Position numbers and translations under genes: made by a program
Notes under the pieces: generated by a model
What the model was told of the DNA's origin: nothing
Seen by the model: the letters and a program-made list of their open reading frames with translations, nothing else
The model's database searches: none
From: a virus
Length of the DNA stretch: 64,000 nt
Virus record (IMG/VR): IMGVR_UViG_3300025072_002799
Location: 47,203-111,202 of that record
Reading direction: 5' to 3' (one strand)
Part shown: positions 16,835 to 64,000 of the stretch, in pieces
Layout: each line of letters starts with the position of its first letter
Numbering within the stretch: the first letter of the stretch is position 1

Positions 16835-17617
16835 ATGATTGACAACATGAATATAAATCACATATCTGTTTCAAGAGATTCTACTTGGAAACAATGCCAA
16901 TATCAATATAAATTTAGATACCATGAAAAAATTCCTCGTCCTGGTGAAGAACCATTTTATTTCGTGTTTGGAAAACTTGTTCATAAGATATTAGAATTGT
17001 ACGTAGAAGGCAAAGGTGAAGTTTCATCTGAGGAATGCACTCGTATGGTTTTAGAGGGGGAAGCAGAGCTTGAGCCAAATAAATTTGCGCCCCCTCTTAA
17101 CGAATGGGCAAAAGGATACAAACCAAGACTTCCTCGTTGTGTTGCAAATGGAGTAAAACTAGCTGACAAAATGGGTTTTGGAAATGACATTCTAGAACAC
17201 AAATTCCATTATGACCTAGATGGCGAAGGTCGTCACGTTATGGGATTCATTGATTGGCTAAAAGATCATGGAGATGGAAAATACACAGTCATTGATTACA
17301 AAACCACAAAAAAAGGTCCGTTTAGGGAAACTGCTCAAACAGTGACCAAGAATCTTCAGCTTCGCACATACGCTCGCGTGGTACAAAAGGAATTTGGTGC
17401 CAAACCCGAAGATATACGTTGTGCTTTGTATTATCTTGAAGACGCTTCATTAATTGCTGCCAAGTTCAATGAAGAGTCGTTAGAGTTTGCAGAAAAGCAA
17501 CTTTTGGAAGCATACAAGCAAATTGAACAAACTACCGCTGAAAAGGCTTGGCCAAATGTAGGTCGTCATTGCTCAAGATGCGATTACAAAACTTTATGCA
17601 TGCATTACAATGTGTAA
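16835..17617 (+). CDS. Cas4/RecB-like PD-(D/E)XK exonuclease
   Basis: QC...FGKLVH, GFID, IDYKT, QLRTY, C-terminal CxxC-x4-C. Confidence 0.9.
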   Translation: MIDNMNINHISVSRDSTWKQCQYQYKFRYHEKIPRPGEEPFYFVFGKLVHKILELYVEGKGEVSSEECTRMVLEGEAELEPNKFAPPLNEWAKGYKPRLPRCVANGVKLADKMGFGNDILEHKFHYDLDGEGRHVMGFIDWLKDHGDGKYTVIDYKTTKKGPFRETAQTVTKNLQLRTYARVVQKEFGAKPEDIRCALYYLEDASLIAAKFNEESLEFAEKQLLEAYKQIEQTTAEKAWPNVGRHCSRCDYKTLCMHYNV

Positions 17618-33181: not shown

Positions 33182-33496
33182 CTACAGTTCATGATATGTT
33201 GTATGATGTCTAATTTCTAGAAACTTAATTCCTTCTTCTTTTAGCAACTTATTCAACTCAATTACTTCTTCTCTTTGGATGAAAATAAAACTTATACAAA
33301 TGGCGTCTATTACTTTAATGTCAGTATCTAAATGTTCGCAAAATTCATCAGATTTGATTCGTGAATCTAACCATCCTTCTTTAGAACCAAATGTAGTTAG
33401 TTTATACCCAGTTCTTAGGTCGCTTAACCCTTTGATATGATCTCTGTTCAATTTGCTTATTGTTAAAGCCAATTTGTTAATATTCATTTCATTCAT
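33182..33496 (-). CDS. Hypothetical protein
   Basis: 104 aa, coupled to the phosphatase. Confidence 0.55.
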   Translation of the reverse strand: MNEMNINKLALTISKLNRDHIKGLSDLRTGYKLTTFGSKEGWLDSRIKSDEFCEHLDTDIKVIDAICISFIFIQREEVIELNKLLKEEGIKFLEIRHHTTYHEL

Positions 33497-34046
33497 TTTG
33501 CGCCTTTTTCATAATTCCATGAACTAATATGTTGGGCGAATAAAGTTTATCGAAGAATTTAGAAAACTCTGGCTGTAATTCTTCAGACATCGCCTTTCCC
33601 ACTGCTGTGGACCTAGAAACTCCAGCATTGCAGTGAATCATCAGCAAATCAACTGAATCCCAATTCTTGCGTACAAATGATACGATCTCATTGGCTTGTT
33701 CATCTGAAATTTGTTGCATATTAGGTCGCGGCAAATCTATGTCATCAAATTCCAACCTAAGAAGATCTATACGATTTTCTTCGCTAATGGGCAATTTATT
33801 GTGAGGCATATCACCTCCTGGGTCTGAAATACTTATGCAAGCCCATGGCTTATCGTATTTGAACTTTGTTGCTGAACGTCTATTTAAAATTAAAATTTTG
33901 CCTAGAACACGCCTTTCAAAAAAGACTGGGGCGTTAATTAATTTCTTTTCCAATTCCTTTTCAGCTTCTTCCATAAGAACTAATTTCCTTTCTGCCTTTT
34001 CTGACAGTTGTTTAATTATATCCAACTCTTCTTCTGAAAACATCAC
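33489..34046 (-). CDS. Protein tyrosine/dual-specificity phosphatase-like
   Basis: ISISDP, LEFDD, IHCNAGVSRS (CX5R). Confidence 0.9.
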   Translation of the reverse strand: MMFSEEELDIIKQLSEKAERKLVLMEEAEKELEKKLINAPVFFERRVLGKILILNRRSATKFKYDKPWACISISDPGGDMPHNKLPISEENRIDLLRLEFDDIDLPRPNMQQISDEQANEIVSFVRKNWDSVDLLMIHCNAGVSRSTAVGKAMSEELQPEFSKFFDKLYSPNILVHGIMKKAQNE

Positions 34047-53508: not shown

Positions 53509-56500
53509 ATGGCTGCTGGTGACTTTCTAATTCGGCGTAACAACGCAGAGACAACGAATATACCCAATGCGGGTACGAACGTTGATGTCACTTGGGATAC
53601 CGAGGTCAAGGACAAGGGCAGCACTCTTACTTATTCTGCTGGTGAGATCACGGTTCCTGATACCGGACCTTATCTCATTATCTATAATGAAGAGTTCGCT
53701 ACTACAGAAACCACCAATAATGAACGTATCGAGATGCAAGGAGAAATCCTCATCAACGGTTCGCCAATCATGGGTGGGCGTGGTCAAGATTATATCAGAA
53801 AGGGTCAACAGGGGCATCAAGAGTGTGTTGTAAGTGGAGCATCAATTACTGAGCTTACTGCCAGTGACACAATTCAAATCAGGTTCTATAGAACCGACTC
53901 TTCGCCTGATGTTGCTGTCGATAGAGTCCCGCTTAAAGGTGGTTTGCAGGTTCTACAGTTAGACGATACCCACAACTACGGCATCTACTCTAAGACTACA
54001 TCCACTGCATTTACCACCACATTCACGGACGTTGCATGGGACAACACTATTCGACAAGATACTGGATTCACTAGGACTGGCGGAAGCATCGACATCGCCA
54101 ATGCCGGACGATACGTTGTCACCATCGGCTGCGACCTTACTAGAACAGATAACAGCACAAGAGTTTTAGCAAATACCAAGTTGCAATTGGATGCCGTTAC
54201 TGTAGCTGGAACTAGATCTTCTTGTTACATGCGTGGAAGTCAGGGTGGCGACAGTTCTAACGATGGTGCTTTGAATGGGATATGGATTATAGATGTGGCG
54301 GCAGGCGAAGATTTAACCCTTCAAATATTCCACAACAGTAACACTCCCGCAACAACCGCCACAGCTAATATGGAAATCTCCATCTGGCAACTTCCAGCAG
54401 ATAGTGAAGAGATCATAGTTGAAGCTACGACTGGTGATATGAATGCTGTCGGGACATTCACATGGGACACAAATCCAGTCATCGACACAGGATCGTTCAC
54501 ACATACCGTTGCAACCGCACCAATCGAAGTCGATGAAGACAACGATTACCTATTTGTCGCAACTACTGTCAGAGTCAACACTGTTACCGTCACTCGCGTG
54601 TCACCAGAACACGCTCTAGCCGTTGATGGCACTAGAGTGCAATACGGAATGGGCGGCGTCTTTCTTAGAGAATCTGCAACATCAAGAGGATCTATAACGG
54701 CAGCGGCGATTCTGCCTCTCACAGCAGGGCAAGAAGTTACCGTTGATGTCGCTAGGTTTTCCACCACAACTACTGCCGTTGCTAATGAGCGTGGACAGTT
54801 CGCAGCTATTAATCTTGGCAAGGCATTTCCTTCTGGGGAAGAACATCTTGGAGAAGTTGATGTGGCAGGCGTTGGAGACGTTACATCAGACGCCTCAATA
54901 GATCGCTTTGTTGATATTGGCATTGATGGAACTGGAACAGTTGATGCTTCTGCTAATGTTGATTTAGGTGGCGAAATAATACTTGATGGTGCTGGCACAG
55001 TTGATGCTACTGGAACTGTGTCAACCTCTGTTGTTGTTAATGGAGAAACAACCATTGATGGCACAGGAACAATTGATGCAGGTGCTATAACTGATCTTGT
55101 TGGGGATTCAACTCTTTGTGGCATAGGCATCATTGGAGAGGTGTGTGAGTTTGACGAATCTTTCAGTAGTGCGTTTCAAATTTGCGAACTATCTGGAGTT
55201 ACTGGAAGAGTTGATCGCGGAGGAGAGACAACGCTTGAAGGAACAGGAACACTTGATGTTAGTGCTTCTGTTGACCTTGGCGCAGACATTGACTTGGATG
55301 GAACAGGCGTATTAGATGCAACCGCTTCTATTGACCGCTTTGTTGACATTGATCTTGAAGGAACAGGAACACTTGATGTTAGTGCTTCTGTTGACCGCTT
55401 TGCAGAAATAACCCTAGACGGATCTGGGACTGTAAATGCAGATGCTTTGGTGGAACTTGCTGGGGATGTTGATCTTAATGGAGTTGCATTAGTTGATCCA
55501 ACTGCTTCTATTGATCGCTTTGTAGAAATTGACATAGACGGAACAGGAACATTAGACGTTACTGCTTCCGTTGACCTTGGTGCAGATGTTGACATTAATG
55601 GAATAGGATCTATAGGAACCACAGCCTCCATTGATCGCTTTGTTGAAATTAACATTAATGGAACTGGAACAATTGTTGCAGATGCAACAGTTGATGCTGC
55701 GGCAGAGATTCTTGGCGAAGTTGATCTTGAAGGAACAGGAACATTAGACGTTACTGCTTCAATTGATCGCTTTGTTGACATTGACATTGAAGGAACAGGA
55801 ACATTAGATTCCACGGCTTCTGTTGATCGCTTTGCAGATGCAACGCTTGAAGGAACAGGAACATTAGACGTTACTGCTTCTGCTGAATTTGGTGCTGAGA
55901 TAAACCTTGATGGGACTGGCGTATTAAACGCTGATGCTTCTGTTGATCGCTTTGCTGACATTGATCTTGATGGAATTGGAACACTAAATACAACTGCCTC
56001 TGTTGATCGCTTTGCTGACATTGATCTTGAAGGAATAGGGATATTAGATGTTGTCGCTTCTGTTGATCGTTTTGCAGACACAACACTTAATGGAACAGGC
56101 GTTATAGATGCAAATGCTTCTGTTAGGTTGTGTGCCAGCACAACTCTTTCTGGTTCAGGAGTCATTAATGCAACTGCAACTTTAGATACGGCAATCCAAA
56201 ATGGAGAAATAAACCTTCTTGGAGTCGCCAACATTGTAGCTGCTGCCACGGCTGATTTTGAGGCAGACACTACGCTAAATGGAACTGCATCAATTAATGC
56301 AAATGCCACCCTCGTAAAAGACCCAACTATCCCTCCAAGCCCTCAGTTGCCTCCACAAGGGTTCCCAGGAGATTTCGCCAATAGTCTTGGTGTTGGACCT
56401 GGAATACCGCTAGGGGTTGTGTCTGGCAATCTTAGGAAAGATATATGCCGAGATCCAAATGATGCTATAACTATCAAATTTAAGTATAAAAATAATATAT

Positions 56501-56622
56501 ATTCTCAAACGAACACTAAGAACGGCTGTATAGATATTGGTATAGAGAATATTAAAATAGCACCCAAAAAGAGATCTGAGTCGGGTATTAAAATAAGAAT
56601 TAACGAATTGCAAAAGGTTTAA
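53509..56622 (+). CDS. Large fiber/adhesin-like virion protein: three C1q/TNF-like domains plus 20-aa repeat shaft
   Basis: Three WD...I....G/D.Y modules; acidic 20-aa repeats. Confidence 0.75.
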   Translation: MAAGDFLIRRNNAETTNIPNAGTNVDVTWDTEVKDKGSTLTYSAGEITVPDTGPYLIIYNEEFATTETTNNERIEMQGEILINGSPIMGGRGQDYIRKGQQGHQECVVSGASITELTASDTIQIRFYRTDSSPDVAVDRVPLKGGLQVLQLDDTHNYGIYSKTTSTAFTTTFTDVAWDNTIRQDTGFTRTGGSIDIANAGRYVVTIGCDLTRTDNSTRVLANTKLQLDAVTVAGTRSSCYMRGSQGGDSSNDGALNGIWIIDVAAGEDLTLQIFHNSNTPATTATANMEISIWQLPADSEEIIVEATTGDMNAVGTFTWDTNPVIDTGSFTHTVATAPIEVDEDNDYLFVATTVRVNTVTVTRVSPEHALAVDGTRVQYGMGGVFLRESATSRGSITAAAILPLTAGQEVTVDVARFSTTTTAVANERGQFAAINLGKAFPSGEEHLGEVDVAGVGDVTSDASIDRFVDIGIDGTGTVDASANVDLGGEIILDGAGTVDATGTVSTSVVVNGETTIDGTGTIDAGAITDLVGDSTLCGIGIIGEVCEFDESFSSAFQICELSGVTGRVDRGGETTLEGTGTLDVSASVDLGADIDLDGTGVLDATASIDRFVDIDLEGTGTLDVSASVDRFAEITLDGSGTVNADALVELAGDVDLNGVALVDPTASIDRFVEIDIDGTGTLDVTASVDLGADVDINGIGSIGTTASIDRFVEININGTGTIVADATVDAAAEILGEVDLEGTGTLDVTASIDRFVDIDIEGTGTLDSTASVDRFADATLEGTGTLDVTASAEFGAEINLDGTGVLNADASVDRFADIDLDGIGTLNTTASVDRFADIDLEGIGILDVVASVDRFADTTLNGTGVIDANASVRLCASTTLSGSGVINATATLDTAIQNGEINLLGVANIVAAATADFEADTTLNGTASINANATLVKDPTIPPSPQLPPQGFPGDFANSLGVGPGIPLGVVSGNLRKDICRDPNDAITIKFKYKNNIYSQTNTKNGCIDIGIENIKIAPKKRSESGIKIRINELQKV
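54840..56310 (+). repeat. 60-bp (20-aa) coding repeat, about 23 diverged copies
   Basis: TASIDRFVDIDLEGTGTLDV consensus; ttgatcgctttg and ggaacaggaac recur with a 60-bp period. Confidence 0.9.
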
Positions 56623-57430: not shown

Positions 57431-57580
57431 TTAGTTTAATCCTTCATCAAGAATATTTTTTGCTGCGTTCAAGTCACGATCTAATTCATGACCATTGGCG
57501 CAAGTCCATTTTCTGTCTGAAAGTTTTAACTCTTGATTTATCCAACCACAAACATTACATGTTTTTCGGCTACCTTTCAA
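57431..57580 (-). pseudogene. tnpB: TnpB C-terminal remnant (zinc ribbon plus RuvC-III)
   Basis: Manual translation: [44 protein letters not shown]. Confidence 0.88.
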
Positions 57581-58137
57581 ACTTCAAACGAGCGGGCGGT
57601 TTGAGTTAATCCATCTTCCGATTCTACGGCAAATCTAAGTTTGCCTTTAATGGTATCATTGACAAACGTAACGTTTATCTTTTCCATTGGATCAAATGCG
57701 CCAAAAAGAGAATGAAACAACCCCTCCATTTGTAGAGGGGTTGTCCCATTGATTAGGATCTGTTGAGCAGCCATGCTCTGTTTACGGATTGCATTTACAT
57801 CACTTTCCTTGTATCTCCGATGATTTCCTTCAGTTCTCTCAGGGATAAGCTTCCCTTTTTCCTCCCAGTTGCGCACAGTTTGCTGTGATACGCCGAGAAT
57901 ATCAGCAACATCATTAATGGTTAGGTGACGGTCCTCGTTGCACTCGTCTTTAATGACTTGTTGGATATGAAGATTTTTATGCTTGGTGTCGGGGTCGTTA
58001 TATAAATTTTTACGCCCCTCTGCAAGCATATCTTTTCTGGCTTTAGCTGATGCTTCAGCCATTTCTGGGATAATGAGATCAATCTCATCTTCGATTTTTT
58101 TAGAAGGCATTCCGCCATCTCCTATTCTAATTGACAC
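57577..58137 (-). CDS. MerR-family HTH DNA-binding protein
   Basis: [38 protein letters not shown]. Confidence 0.88.
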
Positions 58138-58222
58138 TATTATATAGTAAGACTTTTAGAATATTTGTAAAAAAATCTACAATTTATTAAATTAATGTAA
58201 AATACTTGAAATGTAAATTACA

Positions 58223-58846
58223 TCAATCATCCATTATGGCAGCTAATGCTGGGTGAGTTGGAACTGTCCTAGTTCCCGTTTTCACTTGATGCACCTGTCT
58301 TGCTAACGGAGACTGCCTTATTTCTGGCTCTTTTTTACTTTTAAGCATTTGAGCAATTGGATCTTCAGGATCGCTAGATTCGCCTCCAGGCTTAAACATT
58401 CCCTTAAGACGACGCATTGTGTTTTTGGTAGCAAGAGCAGAACGCTCTCTGTCGGCTTGCTCTGAGTCTCGTGAAGCAGCTAATCGTCCACGTCTTCGTG
58501 ATTCACGACCAACCTTACTTGCTGGCATACTGACCCATAATCTACGCCCTTTAAGCTGCTTTTGACGATCATGAGAAATGTCAGATGGATCTTTTTCAAA
58601 GAACTGAGACAATTTAACTAATTCGTGTTTTTGGCTTCCCAAGATCTGCACAACAACATCTACTTTTCCGACTTCTTTTACTATGCCGTAATTAGATGTT
58701 TTTCGTGATGGGAATTCAACAATGTCACCTTTGTCCATTGTCATTCTAACATCATCTGCGTGATCTAAGTCTTTTCGCACTGCGTTTGTAGACGCCTCTG
58801 TAATGCTTAGCCATTCTGCAAATGACATGTTTGTTTCTTCGTTCAT
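58223..58846 (-). CDS. Putative internal head protein (KOW/SH3-like segment)
   Basis: MSFAEWLSITE; KGDIV...YGIVKEV. Confidence 0.6.
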   Translation of the reverse strand: MNEETNMSFAEWLSITEASTNAVRKDLDHADDVRMTMDKGDIVEFPSRKTSNYGIVKEVGKVDVVVQILGSQKHELVKLSQFFEKDPSDISHDRQKQLKGRRLWVSMPASKVGRESRRRGRLAASRDSEQADRERSALATKNTMRRLKGMFKPGGESSDPEDPIAQMLKSKKEPEIRQSPLARQVHQVKTGTRTVPTHPALAAIMDD

Positions 58847-58902
58847 CTCAGAACCTCAAAAAATTTAATATCACTATAGATATGCTTTTGAGTTTACAAA
58901 AA

Positions 58903-59079
58903 TCAACTAGATGCAGTCAAAAACAGCATAATTAAACTAACAGAAAACATCATAAATCCTGGCAAGAGCCACATTACAGCCATTATCGCTGGATCATGTC
59001 CTGGCACACTTTCCACAATGTATTTCCAAAAGAATAAATTGGAAATAATTATAGCAATTATTGACAACAACATCATCAT
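58903..59079 (-). CDS. Small 2-TM membrane protein (58 aa, absent from ORF track)
   Basis: MMMLLSIIAIIISNLFFW...LFLTASS*; start overlaps the upstream stop. Confidence 0.5.
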   Translation of the reverse strand: MMMLLSIIAIIISNLFFWKYIVESVPGHDPAIMAVMWLLPGFMMFSVSLIMLFLTASS

Positions 59080-59474
59080 TATAATTTGCCTGACTTCTTC
59101 AAGTTTTCATGAAATCCTTCAAGCAAGTTGTCTAATTCTTTATCGTCTAGAGAAAGCCCGCTTGTCAAATCATTCATTGTTTCAACAACAATATTGCAGA
59201 GAGTTAAAAACAAATCATCATCAGATGATTCTTCATTGAAGTGCTTGAGAAGATTAAGAACGCACTCTTGAACAATGTCTTCTTTGTCATAGCCAGAAAC
59301 AAAGTCCATGCTGTATTTTGAATAAATTAAATTTATCAAATCATATAATGCATAACCCAATTCGTTTGGATCATGCCCTAACCACACACTAGTGAGCCAA
59401 CCGTTGACTTTCTTTTTGTGGTTTTTATCGCCTGCTAATTCAAGCCATCTGTTTTTCATTTTTCGTCCCTCCAT
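59079..59474 (-). CDS. Hypothetical protein (weak sigma region-2-like segment)
   Basis: YDKEDIVQECVLNLLK. Confidence 0.5.
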   Translation of the reverse strand: MEGRKMKNRWLELAGDKNHKKKVNGWLTSVWLGHDPNELGYALYDLINLIYSKYSMDFVSGYDKEDIVQECVLNLLKHFNEESSDDDLFLTLCNIVVETMNDLTSGLSLDDKELDNLLEGFHENLKKSGKL

Positions 59475-59511
59475 AATTTGAAATGGGACACCTTAGCCTA
59501 ATGTATTTATG

Positions 59512-60102
59512 TTAAACTAAGCTCTTTTCCCAATCTTCTGCACATTTAGCTTTCATCTCTTCATAGAAAAGTTCCTTCTCTTCTAGGCGATAATACATAA
59601 AAGGGGGAGTTTCAGGGGCGATTATTTTTAAAAAATTATGCGTTCCTTCTTTGGTAAAAACTATGCGACCAGTATCTCTTTCCTTGCGTATATCACAAGG
59701 CATGTCAACCTCATTAAAAAACCTTTTTATAACTTTGTTTCCTGCCATTCCAAAAGAAGTTGTTCTCAAACATATCCTCTTTTTAGAAACGAAAAATCCT
59801 TTATCTAAAAACCATGCTGCCAGTGCTGCGCCTGTAAGTTGGTTTAAAGAATCCATGTTCATCTCATTGTAAAAACTTTTATGCAAATCAGTCCACACAG
59901 AGTTAGATTGGGATCTCCAATACCCTTGACTAACTGGCGATGGTCGGGCGTATTCTTCAAGACATTGACATTTAAAATTAAACCAATTTTCGTCTTCGAC
60001 TGGTGCCATAGTCATAAAATAATTAACGCCCGTTTTAGGCTTTGACAAGTAGGACTTCCCTAACAGAGTCCCATAGATCAATTGTTTTTGGTATATCTTC
60101 AT
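59512..60102 (-). CDS. LAGLIDADG-fold protein with both catalytic acids lost
   Basis: LIYGTLLGKS and LAAWFLDKG versus canonical GxLLGDG and WFMDDG. Confidence 0.8.
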   Translation of the reverse strand: MKIYQKQLIYGTLLGKSYLSKPKTGVNYFMTMAPVEDENWFNFKCQCLEEYARPSPVSQGYWRSQSNSVWTDLHKSFYNEMNMDSLNQLTGAALAAWFLDKGFFVSKKRICLRTTSFGMAGNKVIKRFFNEVDMPCDIRKERDTGRIVFTKEGTHNFLKIIAPETPPFMYYRLEEKELFYEEMKAKCAEDWEKSLV

Positions 60103-60226
60103 GTTCTTATTTATGCCATAAAATTATATAATTCGTCCTTATATATGCTATTTCTCCTTAATTATTGAATGTTGCAATCATATCTACTTTTGAATATCAA
60201 ACACTCTTTTTAACGAGGTAATTAAA

Positions 60227-60583
60227 ATGGGAGCAACATCCGTTACAGGAACAGGACATGGAGATGTCTCTGGACTAAATAGAGGCTCGGCTCATATGAC
60301 CCTAGCCGTAGGAAACTTGCTTGGACCAAAAGTTGTAGTCGCTGGCTATCACACTTTGACTTCTGGAAGCAACGTACTCAACATTGGAACACTTGAAGGT
60401 GATCTAGCAGACTATATGGTTTTGGTAAGTGATGACGGCGCAATTGGCGTGGCTGCTGCTGCGGGACAATTGACCGCTCTTAACCAAGTGACCATCCAAG
60501 GAACCAGCACTCATGTAATTCATTGGGCTGTAATTCACGTTGGTGATAATCCTGTCGCTGGTCATGCAGGTAGCACTGTCTAA
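60227..60583 (+). CDS. Probable small virion structural protein
   Basis: 118 aa, G/T/V-rich; GAGG SD. Confidence 0.6.
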   Translation: MGATSVTGTGHGDVSGLNRGSAHMTLAVGNLLGPKVVVAGYHTLTSGSNVLNIGTLEGDLADYMVLVSDDGAIGVAAAAGQLTALNQVTIQGTSTHVIHWAVIHVGDNPVAGHAGSTV

Positions 60584-60673
60584 CTGACAGTTTAACAATA
60601 CGTTTTTCACCCTTTGGGGTGGATTCCGTCTCCTTCCCCTATGGGAAGGTCATGTCTCCTTTCTAATTGACAG

Positions 60674-60712
60674 AAAAAACCCCTTAAGCGATGTAGCTTC
60701 TGGGGTTTTTTT
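60674..60712. terminator. Bidirectional terminator at the trailer end of the array
   Basis: aaaaaacccc...ggggttttttt. Confidence 0.75.
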
Positions 60713-60769
60713 CTTTTAAATGGAAAACATGGACTGATATGCATTTTTTTTGGTTTGCATTTTGTAGAT

Positions 60770-61173
60770 CTTGCACATACACCTCAAACATAGGTTATAT
60801 CATCTATTCCAGAACGCCCGTCTCACACGACCTTGCACATACACCTCAAACATAGGTCATATGCATCTAGAATAAAACTTTTGCATCATAACTTTTGCTT
60901 GCACATACACCTCAAACATAGGTCATATGCATCAAAAAAAAGAGACTGGTCAAGCCACTATAGCTTGCACATACACCTCAAACATAGGTCAGAAGAAGAA
61001 GTTGGCTTGCACATACACCTCAAACATAGGTCATATGCATCAGGCTGTCTGATAGCCCTTACGCCATCACTCTTGCACATACACCTCAAACATAGGTCAT
61101 ATGCATCAAAGGACACGGCGAATCAATCTACTCATTGCTTGCACATACACCTCAAACATAGGTCATATGCATC
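60770..61173 (-). CRISPR. CRISPR array, 7 repeats and 6 spacers; repeat GATGCATATGACCTATGTTTGAGGTGTATGTGCAAG
   Basis: Repeats at 60770 (degenerate, 35 bp), 60832, 60898, 60964 (truncated, 28 bp), 61006, 61072 and 61138; unique spacers of 27, 30, 30, 14, 30 and 30 bp; degenerate left end implies minus-strand transcription. Confidence 0.97.
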
Positions 61174-61234
61174 AGTTTGAATGTAAGTTCTTGTTTTCAA
61201 AGATCTTAGGTGTTTTCATAGGATTAAAAAACCT
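61174..61234 (-). promoter_or_regulatory. CRISPR leader with IHF-site-like motif
   Basis: AT-rich; minus-strand AAACAAGAACTTA (61184-61196) is one mismatch from WATCAANNNNTTR, 10 bp from the first repeat. Confidence 0.55.
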
Positions 61235-62704
61235 CTACTCGGCCCTCATCAATCTTTCCAAAGGTTCGAAAAAATCACATTTTGAGTTCAAGTCCTCAGT
61301 TGATTTCACACTATTTTTACAGACTAGCCGAGACAATTCTCTGACTTCTTTTTCACTTAACGCTGCCTGTAGGATTGTACATGATCCTGACCAAGACTCT
61401 CGTGCAAGGTCCGCGTTAAGCACATTGTTTTCAACAAAAGTCATTAAGTATGCCGAGAACAAATGTCTATCGGATTCTACGCCGCATTCACAAATGTGCC
61501 AACGTTCACTTAATTCCTTCTTCTTAATATTACCACAAAAACATGTTTGACTCAAGCTTGTTTTGAATGTATTTATTTCATTAAAATTACCACCGCTTTT
61601 TGTAACTCCATATTTTAAAATCTCAATAAATTGTGATGGTGCAAACCCATTAATGCTTCGACTAAATCTCTTGTCTTTTTGCCATTGTCCATAACTATTT
61701 GTTTCTACTCTAAAATCATTGCCCATTAACATTATGTGATTTGCTAATTTGCGATGATAGTTCTTCCTTTCGGCGGATTTCTTTCTATGAAGTTCTTTAA
61801 TTAACAACTTTGTTTCTAACATTCCTTTGGAGCGTTTTATTTTTGTTCCTTTTTTATAAGTTCCATTTTCATTAAAAGAGTCTGGGTTGTGCTGTCTGGT
61901 CTGTCTATCTAACTTTCTTTGATGCACTCTTAATTGTCTGTTCAGATTTTTAGAATCTTTTGTCATTAAAGGGAATTTCATAGCCATATTTGATGAAACT
62001 ACATCAATAAACCTTGGTCCAACATCAATTCCAACCTTCCCTTCTCCAAGTTCATGATCTGTTGGTGATTGTCCATCAATGACCAGTTGTGCATAGTATT
62101 TTGTCTTTTTAAATTCTGTTCGTCTAATCATACGAACATACCTAACATTTTGCTCTGCTCCAAACATAGTGTAACTATCATTTGGATCAGCTTCTATTTT
62201 AAGCTTTTTGAATTTAACAAAATAAAGATTGAGATCCCCCTTTTTTTCTTTTTTCCACTTTGCACAAGATCCGGTACGTCCTTCGATTGCATTGAATTGT
62301 TTATAACTGCTCATCTTTGGTCTGCCCTTCTTTCCAATAGCAAATTGATTAACAGAGGAAAAGGCAAGCCCAGTTGTAGCGGAAACAGTGTTAGCTCCAA
62401 TGTGATGATTGATCCATGATTTTGTAAATTGTGTAGACCAATTTTTAAGGCAAAACTCTGTAAATTTAAATTCTGTTCTTAATTCCTTGAAAGCTTCTTT
62501 TTTTTCTTTTCCATCTTTCATCTTACAAGCACGACTGTATCTCTTTGTTCTCCTCATTTCTTTTAGCCTTTTTAAGGCTTCCCCAACAACAGCGTTTCTG
62601 ACTTGCCTATTGGCTTCAAACGCCTTATCCAACTTCAAAGCTTGATGCGGAGTTGGTCTAAGAGCTATTTCGCAGATGTATCGTTCTTTTTTTTCTTTTG
62701 CCAT
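61235..62704 (-). CDS. CRISPR-associated TnpB-derived RuvC protein (candidate compact Cas12)
   Basis: EIALRPT N-terminus; GIDVG (D227); RVET (E334); SQTCFC...WHICEC zinc finger; DRHLFSA (H414 at the RuvC-III Asp position). Confidence 0.9.
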   Translation of the reverse strand: MAKEKKERYICEIALRPTPHQALKLDKAFEANRQVRNAVVGEALKRLKEMRRTKRYSRACKMKDGKEKKEAFKELRTEFKFTEFCLKNWSTQFTKSWINHHIGANTVSATTGLAFSSVNQFAIGKKGRPKMSSYKQFNAIEGRTGSCAKWKKEKKGDLNLYFVKFKKLKIEADPNDSYTMFGAEQNVRYVRMIRRTEFKKTKYYAQLVIDGQSPTDHELGEGKVGIDVGPRFIDVVSSNMAMKFPLMTKDSKNLNRQLRVHQRKLDRQTRQHNPDSFNENGTYKKGTKIKRSKGMLETKLLIKELHRKKSAERKNYHRKLANHIMLMGNDFRVETNSYGQWQKDKRFSRSINGFAPSQFIEILKYGVTKSGGNFNEINTFKTSLSQTCFCGNIKKKELSERWHICECGVESDRHLFSAYLMTFVENNVLNADLARESWSGSCTILQAALSEKEVRELSRLVCKNSVKSTEDLNSKCDFFEPLERLMRAE

Positions 62705-62709
62705 GACTT

Positions 62710-62739
62710 AAATTATGACATATCATAATTTTAAAGCAA
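62710..62739 (-). promoter_or_regulatory. Sigma70-like promoter overlapped by a palindromic operator
   Basis: Minus-strand TTGCTT-16bp-CATAAT (TG-extended), ATG 7 nt downstream; inverted repeat aaattatga-cata-tcataattt at 62710-62731. Confidence 0.6.
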
Positions 62740-62758
62740 TACATATTTAAGAATTAAA

Positions 62759-62852
62759 TGACACTGGCAGGATTTGAACCTGCATGGTGAGTTTCGTCAG
62801 ACGGGTACTCTTACCACACCTTCAACTTGCGTCTACATTCCGCCACAGTGTC
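62759..62852 (-). tRNA. tRNA-like gene with Leu-type D-arm but no canonical anticodon arm
   Basis: Acceptor GACACTG/CAGTGTC plus A; D-arm GCG-GAATGTAGA-CGC; T-arm GCAGG-TTCAAAT-CCTGC; aberrant 45-nt centre. Confidence 0.75.
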
Positions 62853-63374
62853 TTAAGAAATCATATTCTTTTTAATTGTTAAGGATTTGTTAGTTCCGAT
62901 GAACTTTTCATGTTTATAAGTCCAAAACCAACCTTCTGGCAATTCTAAGCAATGTTCAAAATAGAAACATCTGAATTTATCATTCTTAAAGGAGTCTGGT
63001 TTTATGTCTTTTGGAGCCTTCATTCCCTTTGATCCATCTTCATATGTAACTTCATCGTAATGCTTAATGCATTTAAGAGGATATGTAACCATATATTTGC
63101 CATGATCTTTGGCATATTGAATTGGGTCGTAATTATTTATGTAAATGTGAGTAAACCAGAGAAGACCTTGTTCGCTGTACTTAGGATCTAAAACGTAATC
63201 GTCTCCCTTTTTGTACAACTTATCTGTTCCATGATACAACTCTATAGAGTAAGGTTCAGATTTACGCTTTGTTGATATTATATTCTTTTTCTTAGGTCGA
63301 TCAAGCCCTGTTCCAGGTCCAAAAAGATCATCGAAATCTAAAGAATTCTCTAGGTATTTTTTAAATCTCATCAA
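62853..63374 (-). CDS. Putative internal head protein, ART-like motifs
   Basis: MRFKKYLE; LYHGT...LWFT...YAKDHG. Confidence 0.6.
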   Translation of the reverse strand: MMRFKKYLENSLDFDDLFGPGTGLDRPKKKNIISTKRKSEPYSIELYHGTDKLYKKGDDYVLDPKYSEQGLLWFTHIYINNYDPIQYAKDHGKYMVTYPLKCIKHYDEVTYEDGSKGMKAPKDIKPDSFKNDKFRCFYFEHCLELPEGWFWTYKHEKFIGTNKSLTIKKNMIS

Positions 63375-64000
63375 ACCTCTTTTGGAGACATGAATGTTGC
63401 GCCAGATCTTTTATCTTGTCCAACTATTTCTAATCCAAATCGTTTTTGCAATATTGGAATAAGTCTTTGATTGCGAACATCTAATTTAATGTGTGAGTCT
63501 GGGTTCGACTCTGAAAAATCATGGAACATATCAAGACCAATCTTTATTAGATTCATTCCAACAAAATTCCCGCCCTGTTCACCAATAATATCAAAGCTGT
63601 ATTCTCCAGAATTGTCGTAAGATGTATATAATCCTCCTAAAACCTTTCCGTTTTCATGCGCAACGACAGCTAACTCTTTGTCGCTAAGAATGTTAATTCC
63701 AGATTTTCTCTCAACTTGTTGCAATTGGTCATGCCAATTTTCTGGCAATCCGTCATCATCTGTATCTCCATAATTAACAAATGCATATTGAGTAGATTCT
63801 GACAGCCATTCTTTGAATGAAAGATTGTGAAATGGGGATACATCACGATAAGGATGGTCCAGAAGCCTGTCCATCTCTTCTTTCCCCTTGTGGCTTGAGA
63901 GAGCCTTCCACGCTTTGCGGTTATCTGATCGGTTATTCTTCTTGAAAGCCTTAGAAAGGGCTTTAGCGATGTCCATTACGGCTGTTCTTGGGCTACTCAT
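63371..64000 (-). CDS. Putative internal head protein (possibly 5'-truncated) with GNAT-like C-domain
   Basis: Internal LSFKEWLSE; KVLGGL...GGNFVG...LQKRFGL. Confidence 0.55.
   Translation of the reverse strand: MSSPRTAVMDIAKALSKAFKKNNRSDNRKAWKALSSHKGKEEMDRLLDHPYRDVSPFHNLSFKEWLSESTQYAFVNYGDTDDDGLPENWHDQLQQVERKSGINILSDKELAVVAHENGKVLGGLYTSYDNSGEYSFDIIGEQGGNFVGMNLIKIGLDMFHDFSESNPDSHIKLDVRNQRLIPILQKRFGLEIVGQDKRSGATFMSPKEV

What the first reader, a model, noticed from the sequence alone, without database searches (positions are those of the whole stretch)
60770..61173. Repeat is a full-length hairpin with fixed 30-bp spacers, so the guide may be tracrRNA-independent
Seen: the minus-strand repeat folds TGCATAT with ATGTGCA, and ACCT with AGGT around an ATGTTTG loop. 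All four intact internal spacers are exactly 30 bp, and I found no clear anti-repeat nearby. Known: 36/30 geometry is typical of type II and VI-B arrays, while the GxTGCA...TGCAAx ends resemble Cas12f-type repeats. Inference: the repeat itself may be the scaffold, and spacers may be acquired in trans by a host Cas1-Cas2 with a 30-bp ruler.
Basis: partly seen in the sequence, partly recalled or inferred. Interest (0 to 1): 0.7.

Follow-up and report, generated by a model that had tools for sequence, protein, structure and literature searches.

The report
Phage TnpB-derived CRISPR with hairpin repeats
A large marine phage carries a transposon-type RNA-guided protein (TnpB) next to a small CRISPR array whose repeat is built like the last hairpin of the transposon's guide RNA. 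This is a natural example of how CRISPR guides may arise from transposon RNA, and whether the repeat works without a helper RNA is still open.

Summary
There are seven 36-nt repeats at 60770-61173 plus a decayed eighth, and four spacers of exactly 30 nt. The minus-strand repeat folds into a 12-bp hairpin.

The array lies 61 nt downstream of, and runs the same way as, a 489-aa TnpB-fold gene in a tailed marine phage.

The gene sits inside a large family of mobile TnpB-only insertion elements that carry a conserved, covarying omegaRNA. None of about 137 relatives' loci has an array directly downstream of the gene like this one.

The family's omegaRNA ends in a roughly 12-bp bulged hairpin, then 'AG', then the guide. 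The repeat has the same build (12 bp, a bulge on the 3' strand, 'AG', then the spacer) but no sequence likeness.

No anti-repeat beyond chance was found in the leader or the 111-kb contig. A weak remnant of the omegaRNA scaffold lies over the gene's 3' end and the leader. It lacks the family's most conserved motif and its terminal hairpin.

So 'tracrRNA-independent' is plausible (about 45%) but unproven. Acquisition by a host Cas1-Cas2 finds no support: no Cas1 or Cas2, no matching host array, and an identical array in four studies.

The RuvC-III Asp is His, uniquely among 96 family members.

This is a new variant of a known kind (TranC / type V-U). The scan has noted similar phage TnpB mini-arrays on other DNA.

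The parts
61235..62704 (-). Effector gene, 489 aa, TnpB fold (WED/REC/RuvC/zinc finger). RuvC-I D227 and RuvC-II E334 are kept.
   Evidence: Pfam Cas12f1-like_TNB, E 5.7e-7. NCBIfam guided_TnpB, 98.5 bits against a cut-off of 100. AlphaFold model pLDDT 91.6. Best Foldseek matches are ISFba1 TnpB 8IAZ, ISDra2 TnpB 8H1J and AsCas12f. The gene is nested in the family tree.
61463..61465 (-). Codon for His414, at the position of the RuvC-III catalytic Asp (SDRHLFSA against the family's QRDLYSA).
   Evidence: The aligned column is D in 95 of 96 family representatives and H only here. His414 aligns to the NRDINAA Asp of LaTranC.
61474..61502 (-). Sigma-70-like promoter match (TTGGCA-17-TAGAAT) inside the gene's 3' part. 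It could start a transcript covering the scaffold remnant and the array.
   Evidence: Consensus scan only. Three sites were found against 8.1 expected, so this is not evidence of function.
61200..61373 (-). Weak remnant of the family's omegaRNA scaffold, spanning the last 46 codons and 35 nt of the leader. The three nested stems are mostly kept (12 of 14 pairs). The GGAUGUUGUA motif and the terminal hairpin are missing.
   Evidence: Covariance model R1, built from 39 relatives, gives its best match of the whole window on both strands here: 6.8 bits, E 0.05 over 9 kb and 0.36 over 64 kb. nhmmer finds nothing. Residues 465-489 have pLDDT below 50.
61174..61234 (-). 61-nt spacer between the stop codon (TAG) and the first repeat, i.e. 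the leader side of the array.
   Evidence: Read from the sequence. It has no likeness to the repeat (P 0.45) and no anti-repeat (P 0.4-0.96).
60770..61173 (-). CRISPR array read on the minus strand. Repeats lie at 61138-61173, 61072-61107, 61006-61041, 60964-60991 (the 5' 8 nt lost), 60898-60933, 60832-60867 and 60770-60804 (degenerate). Spacers lie at 61108-61137, 61042-61071, 60992-61005 (14 nt), 60934-60963, 60868-60897 and 60805-60831 (27 nt).
   Evidence: The polarity follows from decay at the 60770 end, from the G-U pairs and from the shared direction with the gene.
60725..60744 (-). Vestigial half repeat in the trailer (ATGCATATCAGTCCATGTTT against ATGCATATGACCTATGTTT).
   Evidence: Local alignment score 23. 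The null mean is 11.4 and 0 of 2000 shuffles reached the score.
60676..60714 (.). Interrupted G+C hairpin (CCCCTTAAGC...GCTTCTGGGG) between an A run and a T run. It looks like a two-way terminator that closes the array transcript and the + strand gene at 60227-60583.
   Evidence: Read from the sequence. The consensus scan did not list it.

Best explanation
This is a TnpB-derived, type V-like mini CRISPR module of a tailed marine phage.

The gene descends from a mobile TnpB-only insertion element. Its guide RNA (omegaRNA) ended in a hairpin of about 12 bp, then 'AG', then the guide.

In this phage that guide-proximal hairpin module, now completely changed in sequence, has become a 36-nt CRISPR repeat. 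The array is transcribed on the minus strand, downstream of the gene.

Each unit, a hairpin plus the spacer 3' of it, most likely serves as a complete short crRNA. The protein would bind it by the hairpin without a base-paired tracrRNA. The old upstream scaffold is decaying.

Because the RuvC-III Asp is His, the complex may bind its DNA targets rather than cut them, or cut them poorly.

Shown: the anatomy, the strand, the family descent, the matching build of the repeat and the omegaRNA end, and the lack of an anti-repeat.

Inferred: that the crRNA suffices alone, how it is processed, whether the complex binds or cuts, and what it targets.

The confidence given is for the whole statement, including the crRNA-alone step. 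The identity of the module alone I hold at about 0.85.
For: - Array, hairpin and strand.
- The TnpB fold and its place inside a TnpB family.
- The relatives are multi-copy elements of about 1.7 kb. Their likeness to each other ends right after ...UCAG.
- Their omegaRNA 3' part shows compensatory changes in 19 of 23 pairs.
- The family's terminal module folds as a roughly 12-bp hairpin with bulges on the 3' strand. Two unpaired nt precede the guide in 20 of 39 cases, and all 39 end in AG. The repeat has 12 bp, one 3'-strand bulge, and AG before the spacer.
- None of about 137 relatives' loci has an array downstream of the gene (five have unrelated repeat arrays elsewhere in the 3-kb flanks).
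- In the model's alignment to this locus, exactly the terminal hairpin (22 model positions) and the near-invariant AUGUUGUA stretch are missing.
- No anti-repeat: the duplex with the scaffold and leader is -20.3 against a shuffled mean of -20.0, and ungapped helices give P 0.4-0.96.
- The guide-pseudoknot-stem core is shared by all Cas12 guides. A 'condensed and duplicated' omegaRNA was proposed as the origin of palindromic-repeat, tracrRNA-free arrays (PMC10097598).
- Cas12m2 uses a crRNA alone, with a stem that ends at -3 (PMC10442227).
- In some TranC clades no tracrRNA could be identified (bioRxiv 10.64898/2026.03.27.714800).
Against: - The nearest solved folds, TnpB and Cas12f, are known from the literature to use long guide scaffolds, and LaTranC and Cas12n are described as tracrRNA users in the papers read here.
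- This protein has no extra domain compared with its omegaRNA-using relatives.
- The family RNA model's best match in the window lies exactly where a scaffold or tracrRNA would be.
- The protein tail encoded there is disordered, as in Cas12n.
- A 6-nt ACACCU in the leader would pass the loose anti-repeat rule used in the field.
- One marginal anti-repeat-like site exists 27 kb away (-34.5 kcal/mol against null minima of -29.3 to -32.9).
- About 78% of the phage genome was not available.
- Two of the seven repeats are damaged and the array does not vary between samples, so it could be a relic.
- No target was found for any spacer.
Confidence: 0.45

Rival explanations
1. The system depends on a helper RNA. 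The omegaRNA-derived scaffold over the gene's 3' end and the leader (or an RNA encoded elsewhere in the unseen genome) acts as a tracrRNA-like partner. It would join each crRNA through short or non-canonical contacts, as in TranC, Cas12n and Cas12f. Alternatively, only the first unit, which is joined to the scaffold, works as an omegaRNA-like guide.
For: - The top match of the family RNA model lies at 61200-61373 on the correct strand, with 12 of 14 stem pairs kept.
- Residues 465-489 are disordered, parallel to the tracrRNA-encoding tail of Cas12n (bioRxiv 10.64898/2026.03.27.714800).
- The family profile matches LaTranC (E 2e-22) and RdCas12n 9J09 (E 4e-18) best among solved structures.
- Other phage TnpB mini-arrays noted in this scan have omegaRNA-derived leaders with anti-repeats (unchecked notes).
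Against: - The score is marginal: 6.8 bits against a next-best chance hit of 6.3 bits.
- The family's most conserved single-stranded motif and its terminal hairpin are absent.
- nhmmer finds the omegaRNA in relatives of equal protein divergence (E 1e-16 to 1e-23) but not here.
- No anti-repeat above chance was found.
- The repeat's own -12 kcal/mol hairpin would compete with any pairing.
Confidence: 0.3
2. The array is a relic or is idle. It arose once and is now decaying, and the gene is kept for another role or is itself on the way out.
For: - One repeat is truncated by a 24-nt deletion, one is degenerate and one is half-decayed.
- The catalytic Asp is replaced by His.
- The array is identical in four studies.
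- No spacer target was found.
Against: - The ORF is intact and the model is confident (pLDDT 91.6).
- D227 and E334 are kept.
- Five repeats are letter-perfect across 36 nt, which argues for recent constraint or a recent origin.
- The terminal branch is not unusually long (0.82 against a median of 0.68).
Confidence: 0.15
3. The array is not the TnpB's partner. It would be a phage-borne orphan array or an RNA decoy that mimics the repeats of a host CRISPR-Cas system, and the TnpB gene merely landed beside it.
For: - Phages are known to carry orphan mini-arrays and repeat decoys (general knowledge).
- The uniform 30-nt spacers suggest a Cas1-Cas2 ruler.
- Insertion next to an existing array is an accepted alternative origin (PMC10691335).
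- The region is rich in mobile genes: a LAGLIDADG gene at 59512-60102 and a TnpB remnant at 57452-57574.
Against: - The repeat matches no Rfam CRISPR-DR family.
- It occurs in none of 185,579 species' genomes, nor in IMG/VR or the JGI metagenome contigs.
- The array sits where the omegaRNA end and guide should be, on the same strand, with the family's hairpin-AG-guide build.
- The element's own terminal hairpin and guide are missing, rather than lying intact beside the array.
Confidence: 0.07

Closest known systems
TranC, transposon-CRISPR intermediates (Jin et al., Cell 2025, doi 10.1016/j.cell.2025.09.004; not held here, known through PMC13565253 and bioRxiv 10.64898/2026.03.27.714800); LaTranC, PDB 9JFO/9JFQ
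   Same: - A TnpB-sized effector nested among TnpBs, with a short array downstream and no adaptation genes.
- Some TranC systems are phage-borne (CauTranC9).
- Repeats are 32-38 nt.
- LaTranC is the best sequence match among solved structures.
   Different: - The defining step of TranC is a split of the omegaRNA into a tracrRNA and a crRNA that pair. No anti-repeat is found here, and the whole terminal hairpin stays inside the repeat.
- Identity to LaTranC is low, about 16-18% in the Foldseek alignments.
- Membership of a TranC clade could not be tested.
- The RuvC triad here is D-E-H.
Cas12m (type V-M), e.g. Cas12m2, PDB 8HHL (PMC10442227)
   Same: - A compact TnpB-like effector that uses a crRNA alone.
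- The repeat-derived hairpin ends 2-3 nt before the guide.
- The RuvC triad is non-canonical and includes His.
- It silences targets by binding, and it has no cas1 or cas2.
   Different: - Cas12m is about 600 aa and has a REC2 insertion.
- Fold likeness is only moderate (TM 0.42-0.52) and sequence likeness is weak (UnCas12m4a, E 1e-6 to the family profile).
- The His is at RuvC-I (HDD) in Cas12m2 and at RuvC-III here.
- This protein is not a member.
TnpB-omegaRNA (OMEGA) elements of the same family and of ISFba1 (8IAZ) and ISDra2 (8H1J)
   Same: - The fold (TM 0.70-0.75 to the targets).
- Family descent.
- The guide lies 3' of a terminal hairpin followed by AG.
- A scaffold remnant lies over the gene's 3' end.
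   Different: - A multi-spacer array stands in place of a single guide.
- There is no recognisable intact omegaRNA.
- The gene is single-copy in the contig.
- The RuvC-III Asp is lost.
Cas12n (type V-U4), RdCas12n, PDB 9J09
   Same: - A TnpB-near effector with a disordered C-terminal tail.
- The DNA for that tail encodes the guide scaffold.
- The array lies downstream.
   Different: Cas12n has a clear anti-repeat and a tracrRNA:crRNA duplex. None is found here.
Cas12j (CasPhi, PDB 7ODF) and CasLambda (PDB 9IZM) of huge phages
   Same: They are phage-encoded, need no tracrRNA (from general knowledge), use hairpin-bearing repeats of about 36 nt, and have no adaptation genes.
   Different: They are 700-800 aa proteins with only a distant fold match (TMq 0.33-0.38). 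They are separate lineages.

Membership tests
CRISPR array (generic) | Three or more near-identical direct repeats of 23-55 nt, separated by unique spacers of similar length | tested here: met
   Seven repeats of 36 nt (five perfect) and four 30-nt spacers, all unique.
CRISPR array (generic) | Polarity: a leader at one end and repeat decay at the other | tested here: met
   Degenerate and half-decayed repeats occur only at the 60725-60804 end.
Type V / TranC effector | A single RuvC-containing TnpB/Cas12-fold protein next to the array, with the array downstream and in the same direction | tested here: met
   The gap is 61 nt and both lie on the minus strand.
Type V / TranC effector | An intact RuvC D-E-D triad | tested here: not met
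   The triad is D227-E334-H414. H occurs in 1 of 96 family members.
TranC (split omegaRNA) | An omegaRNA-derived tracrRNA with an anti-repeat that pairs with the repeat | tested here: not met
   Only a weak scaffold remnant (6.8 bits) was found, and no anti-repeat above chance. The rest of the genome was not available.
TranC (split omegaRNA) | Dual use of CRISPR RNA and reRNA guides | not testable with these tools
   This needs biochemistry.
TnpB-omegaRNA transposon (IS200/IS605, TnpB-only type) | TnpB fold and family membership | tested here: met
   guided_TnpB scores 98.5 bits, just under the 100-bit cut-off. The gene is nested in the tree with 0.976 support for a clade of five.
TnpB-omegaRNA transposon (IS200/IS605, TnpB-only type) | An intact omegaRNA ending in the family's terminal hairpin plus one guide | tested here: not met
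   There is no nhmmer hit. The model alignment lacks the hairpin and the AUGUUGUA motif.
TnpB-omegaRNA transposon (IS200/IS605, TnpB-only type) | Mobility: several copies with defined ends | tested here: inconclusive
   There is one copy in the 111-kb contig, and the other TnpBs there belong to other families. Only about 22% of the genome was seen.
Cas12m (V-M) | Sequence or fold membership, including the REC2 insertion | tested here: not met
   TM is 0.42-0.52. TnpB and Cas12f rank higher.
Cas12f (V-F) | A tracrRNA with repeat:anti-repeat duplexes | tested here: not met
   No anti-repeat was found. Fold TM to AsCas12f is 0.6.
Host-type CRISPR repeat (orphan array or decoy) | The same repeat in a prokaryote's CRISPR-cas locus, or a match to a curated repeat family | tested here: not met
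   No hits.

The most novel reading that the evidence does not exclude
A TnpB-sized protein, still nested among mobile TnpBs, works with a 36-nt hairpin crRNA alone. If so, it shows the 'condensed and duplicated omegaRNA' route to tracrRNA-free Cas12 guides at its first step. The discarded scaffold is still faintly visible, and a D-E-H RuvC site suggests guided binding rather than cutting.
Probability: 0.4. Interest if true: 0.75.

Novelty: new variant of a known kind. Interest (0 to 1): 0.55.

Why it matters
Two routes from omegaRNA to CRISPR guides have been proposed: a split into tracrRNA plus crRNA, and condensation into a short palindromic repeat. Natural intermediates described so far (TranC, Cas12n) document the split.

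This locus may document the other route. The repeat keeps the build of the ancestral terminal hairpin, and the old scaffold is fading.

If the protein really works with a handle of about 36 nt, it would be among the smallest protein-plus-guide pairs known. It would also be a possible natural DNA-binding (non-cutting) variant.

For phage biology, it adds a marine huge-phage example of a fixed, adaptation-free guide set whose targets are unknown.

Tried and rejected
The 389-kb contig that carries the identical protein could therefore not be read.
- No RNA holder was listed among the public runs, so expression could not be examined. Only contigs, not reads, could be laid.
- The repeat is absent from IMG/VR, from the metagenome contigs (exact 30-mer) and from the species genomes (degenerate pattern).
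- Spacers have no match in the 111-kb contig at up to 8 mismatches, in the phage records or in plasmids. The PAM-proximal 22-mers of four spacers are absent from IMG/VR.
- Close relatives of the effector were not found in viral or metagenome contigs; the best is 37% identical.
- No relative of the flanking gene 62853-63374 was found, so no 'empty site' could be defined.
- 'Relatives' cannot be drawn for a virus record, so host genomes could not be scanned.
- Rfam gives no match in 58000-64000.
- The idea that the leader holds a decayed repeat copy was rejected (P 0.45).
- The leader's ACACCU, which pairs with AGGUGU of the repeat, is at chance level.
- The anti-repeat-like site at about 33803-33841 (minus strand) lies inside a phosphatase-like ORF between the terminase and portal genes. 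It is only 1.6 kcal/mol beyond the best of five shuffled strands, and four strand combinations were searched. It is judged probably chance.
- The omegaRNA ends of the two other TnpB genes of the contig show no likeness to the repeat.
- The 3' end of the Cas14/Cas12f repeat recalled from memory could not be found in the paper library.

Full report
**Observation.** The region 60770-61173 holds seven copies of a 36-nt repeat (+ strand CTTGCACATACACCTCAAACATAGGTCATATGCATC), mostly 66 nt apart from start to start.
- Four spacers are exactly 30 nt.
- One unit has lost 24 nt: the repeat at 60964 is cut to 28 nt and only 14 nt of spacer remain.
- The copy at 60770 is degenerate (35 nt) and is followed by a 27-nt spacer.
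- A further half-decayed copy lies at about 60725-60744 (0 of 2000 shuffles reached its score).

The minus-strand RNA of the repeat folds into a 12-bp hairpin: 8 bp, a bulged G on the 3' strand, 4 bp, and a 7-nt loop.
- Its energy is -12.0 kcal/mol (z -3.4).
- The + strand gives only -5.1 kcal/mol.
- Two of the pairs are G-U, so the structure exists only on the minus strand.

Three things fix the reading direction as minus: decay at the 60770 end, the strand-specific fold, and the direction of the neighbouring gene. The leader is then at 61174-61234. An interrupted G+C hairpin between A and T runs at 60676-60714 looks like a terminator (read from the sequence).

**Context.**
- The window is part of a 111-kb IMG/VR virus record that CheckV rates about 22% complete.
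- It encodes a large terminase, a portal protein and a major head protein.
- Eight marine metagenome runs hold 40% or more of the sampled words of the locus.
- The identical protein is on four contigs, the longest 389 kb.
- Contigs of four runs from four studies (2017-2020) cover the locus with no differences. They show the same spacers and the same truncated repeat, so no array turnover is seen.

**The neighbouring gene.** It lies 61 nt upstream of the array, on the same strand, at 61235-62704, and encodes 489 aa.
- It matches Pfam Cas12f1-like_TNB and NCBIfam guided_TnpB (98.5 bits).
- The AlphaFold model is confident (pLDDT 91.6) except for residues 465-489.
- Foldseek ranks ISFba1 TnpB, ISDra2 TnpB and AsCas12f first. 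Cas12p, LaTranC, Fanzor2 and Cas12m2 follow, and CasPhi and CasLambda are far behind.
- Among 1.84 billion representative proteins, 2651 are related, but none is more than 39% identical.
- In a tree of 96 representatives the protein is nested in a clade of five (support 0.976), with an ordinary branch length.

**The relatives are mobile elements with a conserved omegaRNA.**
- In Nitrospirota, Peptococcaceae, cyanobacterial and other genomes, copies are alike over about 1.67-2.2 kb. The likeness stops right after ...UCAG, about 200 nt past the conserved protein core.
- The last roughly 170 nt form a conserved RNA in which 19 of 23 predicted pairs show compensatory changes.
- None of about 137 relatives' loci has an array downstream of the gene. 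Five have unrelated repeat arrays elsewhere in the flanks.

**The repeat has the build of the family's omegaRNA end.**
- The family RNA ends in a 34-nt module: A-GAAC-CCCC-NGGC / UUUA / GCCN-(U)-GGGG-(A)G-GUUC-AG, then the guide.
- Folded singly, 20 of 39 representatives give a roughly 12-bp hairpin with bulges on the 3' strand and exactly two unpaired nucleotides before the guide. All 39 end in AG.
- The phage repeat is 36 nt: a 12-bp hairpin, one 3'-strand bulge, then AG, then the spacer.
- There is no sequence likeness, but the geometry is the same.
- It is also the 'guide-pseudoknot-stem' core that Nakagawa et al. found in all Cas12 guides. They suggested that palindromic-repeat, tracrRNA-free arrays arose from a 'condensed and duplicated' omegaRNA (PMC10097598).
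- In Cas12m2, which uses a crRNA alone, the stem likewise ends at position -3 (PMC10442227).

**Search for a helper RNA.**
- A sequence profile of the family's omegaRNA finds most relatives, including phage ones of equal protein divergence (E 1e-16 to 1e-23). It finds nothing in the window.
- A covariance model (R1) gives its best match of the whole window, on both strands, at 61200-61373 (minus). That is exactly the gene's 3' end plus 35 nt of leader.
- The score is only 6.8 bits (E 0.05 in 9 kb, 0.36 in 64 kb), and the next chance hit scores 6.3 bits.
- I expected a match in this place before running the search. The chance that the top hit falls in a roughly 300-nt target on the right strand is about 0.2%. 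I therefore take the region as homologous to the scaffold.
- In the alignment the three nested stems keep 12 of 14 pairs, and GAGUCAGAG, GAGGGCC and AGAGG are recognisable.
- The near-invariant AUGUUGUA stretch and the 22-position terminal hairpin are absent.
- The protein tail encoded here is predicted to be disordered. This recalls Cas12n, whose dispensable tail encodes its tracrRNA (bioRxiv 10.64898/2026.03.27.714800).

**Anti-repeat tests.**
- The best duplex between the repeat and 61174-61400 is no better than for shuffled sequence (-20.3 against a mean of -20.0).
- Ungapped helices with the leader are at chance (P 0.4-0.96).
- The leader is not a decayed repeat (P 0.45).
- In the 111-kb contig the best site is at about 33803-33841 (minus), inside a phosphatase-like ORF between the terminase and portal genes.
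- That site scores -34.5 kcal/mol with many G-U pairs. The minima of five shuffled strands were -29.3 to -32.9, and four strand combinations were searched. It is marginal and I take it as chance.

**Adaptation and targets.**
- The contig has no Cas1 or Cas2.
- It has one marginal Cas4-family nuclease 44 kb away, of a kind common in phages.
- The repeat is absent from Rfam families, IMG/VR, the JGI metagenome contigs and one genome each of 185,579 species.
- No spacer matches the contig, the phage records, plasmids or IMG/VR.
The exact 30-nt spacing remains unexplained.

**Active site.** D227 and E334 are invariant in the family. The RuvC-III Asp is D in 95 of 96 members and H only in this protein (SDRHLFSA), and it aligns to the catalytic Asp of LaTranC. 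Asp412, two residues before it, also occurs in 11 relatives that keep Asp414, so it is not a specific compensation. Cas12m2, with an H-D-D site, binds but does not cut DNA (PMC10442227). A binding-only or weakened enzyme is a reasonable inference here, not a result.

**Reading.** With high confidence (about 0.85) this is a TnpB-derived, type V-like mini CRISPR module. Its repeat corresponds to the guide-proximal hairpin module of the ancestral omegaRNA.

How the guide works is open.
- **crRNA alone, about 0.45.** The hairpin is self-contained with the right geometry, there is no anti-repeat, and the scaffold has lost its most conserved parts.
- **A scaffold or tracr-like helper, about 0.3.** The remnant sits in the right place, the tail is disordered, and all near folds use long RNAs.
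- **A decaying relic, about 0.15.**
- **A host-type orphan array or decoy, about 0.07.**

**Known versus new.**
- Independent births of type V systems from TnpB (about 50), downstream arrays, and the lack of adaptation genes in most V-U groups are established (PMC10691335).
- TranC intermediates, including a phage one, are described (Jin et al. 2025, via PMC13565253; bioRxiv 10.64898/2026.03.27.714800). For several TranC clades no tracrRNA could be identified.
- This scan has also noted similar phage TnpB mini-arrays on other DNA, most with anti-repeats (unchecked notes).
- What is particular here is the combination: an effector without close kin, a repeat that keeps the whole terminal hairpin instead of half of it, a fading scaffold, and a D-E-H site.
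- I class it as a new variant of a known kind.

Noticed in passing
window 61463-61465: The RuvC-III catalytic Asp is replaced by His in the effector. This is unique among 96 family representatives, while D227 and E334 are kept.
   Followed up: yes
genome C1:8769-9941 (+) and C1:21507-22658 (-), both before the window; window 57452-57574 (-): The same phage contig carries two more full-length TnpB genes of other families (390 and 383 aa, canonical DRDMNAA and NADLNAS motifs). It also carries a 50-aa TnpB C-terminal remnant next to a MerR-type HTH gene (57577-58137). Their RNA ends do not resemble the repeat.
   Followed up: partly
window 17246-17602 (+): A Cas4-family PD-(D/E)XK nuclease match (24.9 bits, just over the cut-off) in a 267-aa ORF, 44 kb from the array. 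It is probably a phage recombination nuclease.
   Followed up: no
window 33489-34046 (-): A 185-aa ORF with an HCNAGVSRS (CX5R phosphatase-like) motif lies between the terminase and portal genes. It contains the contig's best, but marginal, anti-repeat-like stretch at about 33803-33841.
   Followed up: partly
window 59512-60102 (-): A LAGLIDADG homing-endonuclease gene lies 670 nt from the array. The 57-63 kb region is a cluster of mobile-element genes.
   Followed up: no
L063:1781-2105, L065:2515-2717, L080:175-999: A few distant relatives of the effector have CRISPR-like arrays upstream of the gene (for example a repeat starting GTTTTCCCCACAAG in L065). These are probably TnpB insertions next to host arrays.
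   Followed up: no
window 53509-56622 (+): A 1037-aa protein with dozens of D-x-x-G-T-G-T-L/V-D-type repeats, probably a fibre or adhesin. A long antisense ORF (55176-56309) is an artefact of the repeats.
   Followed up: no
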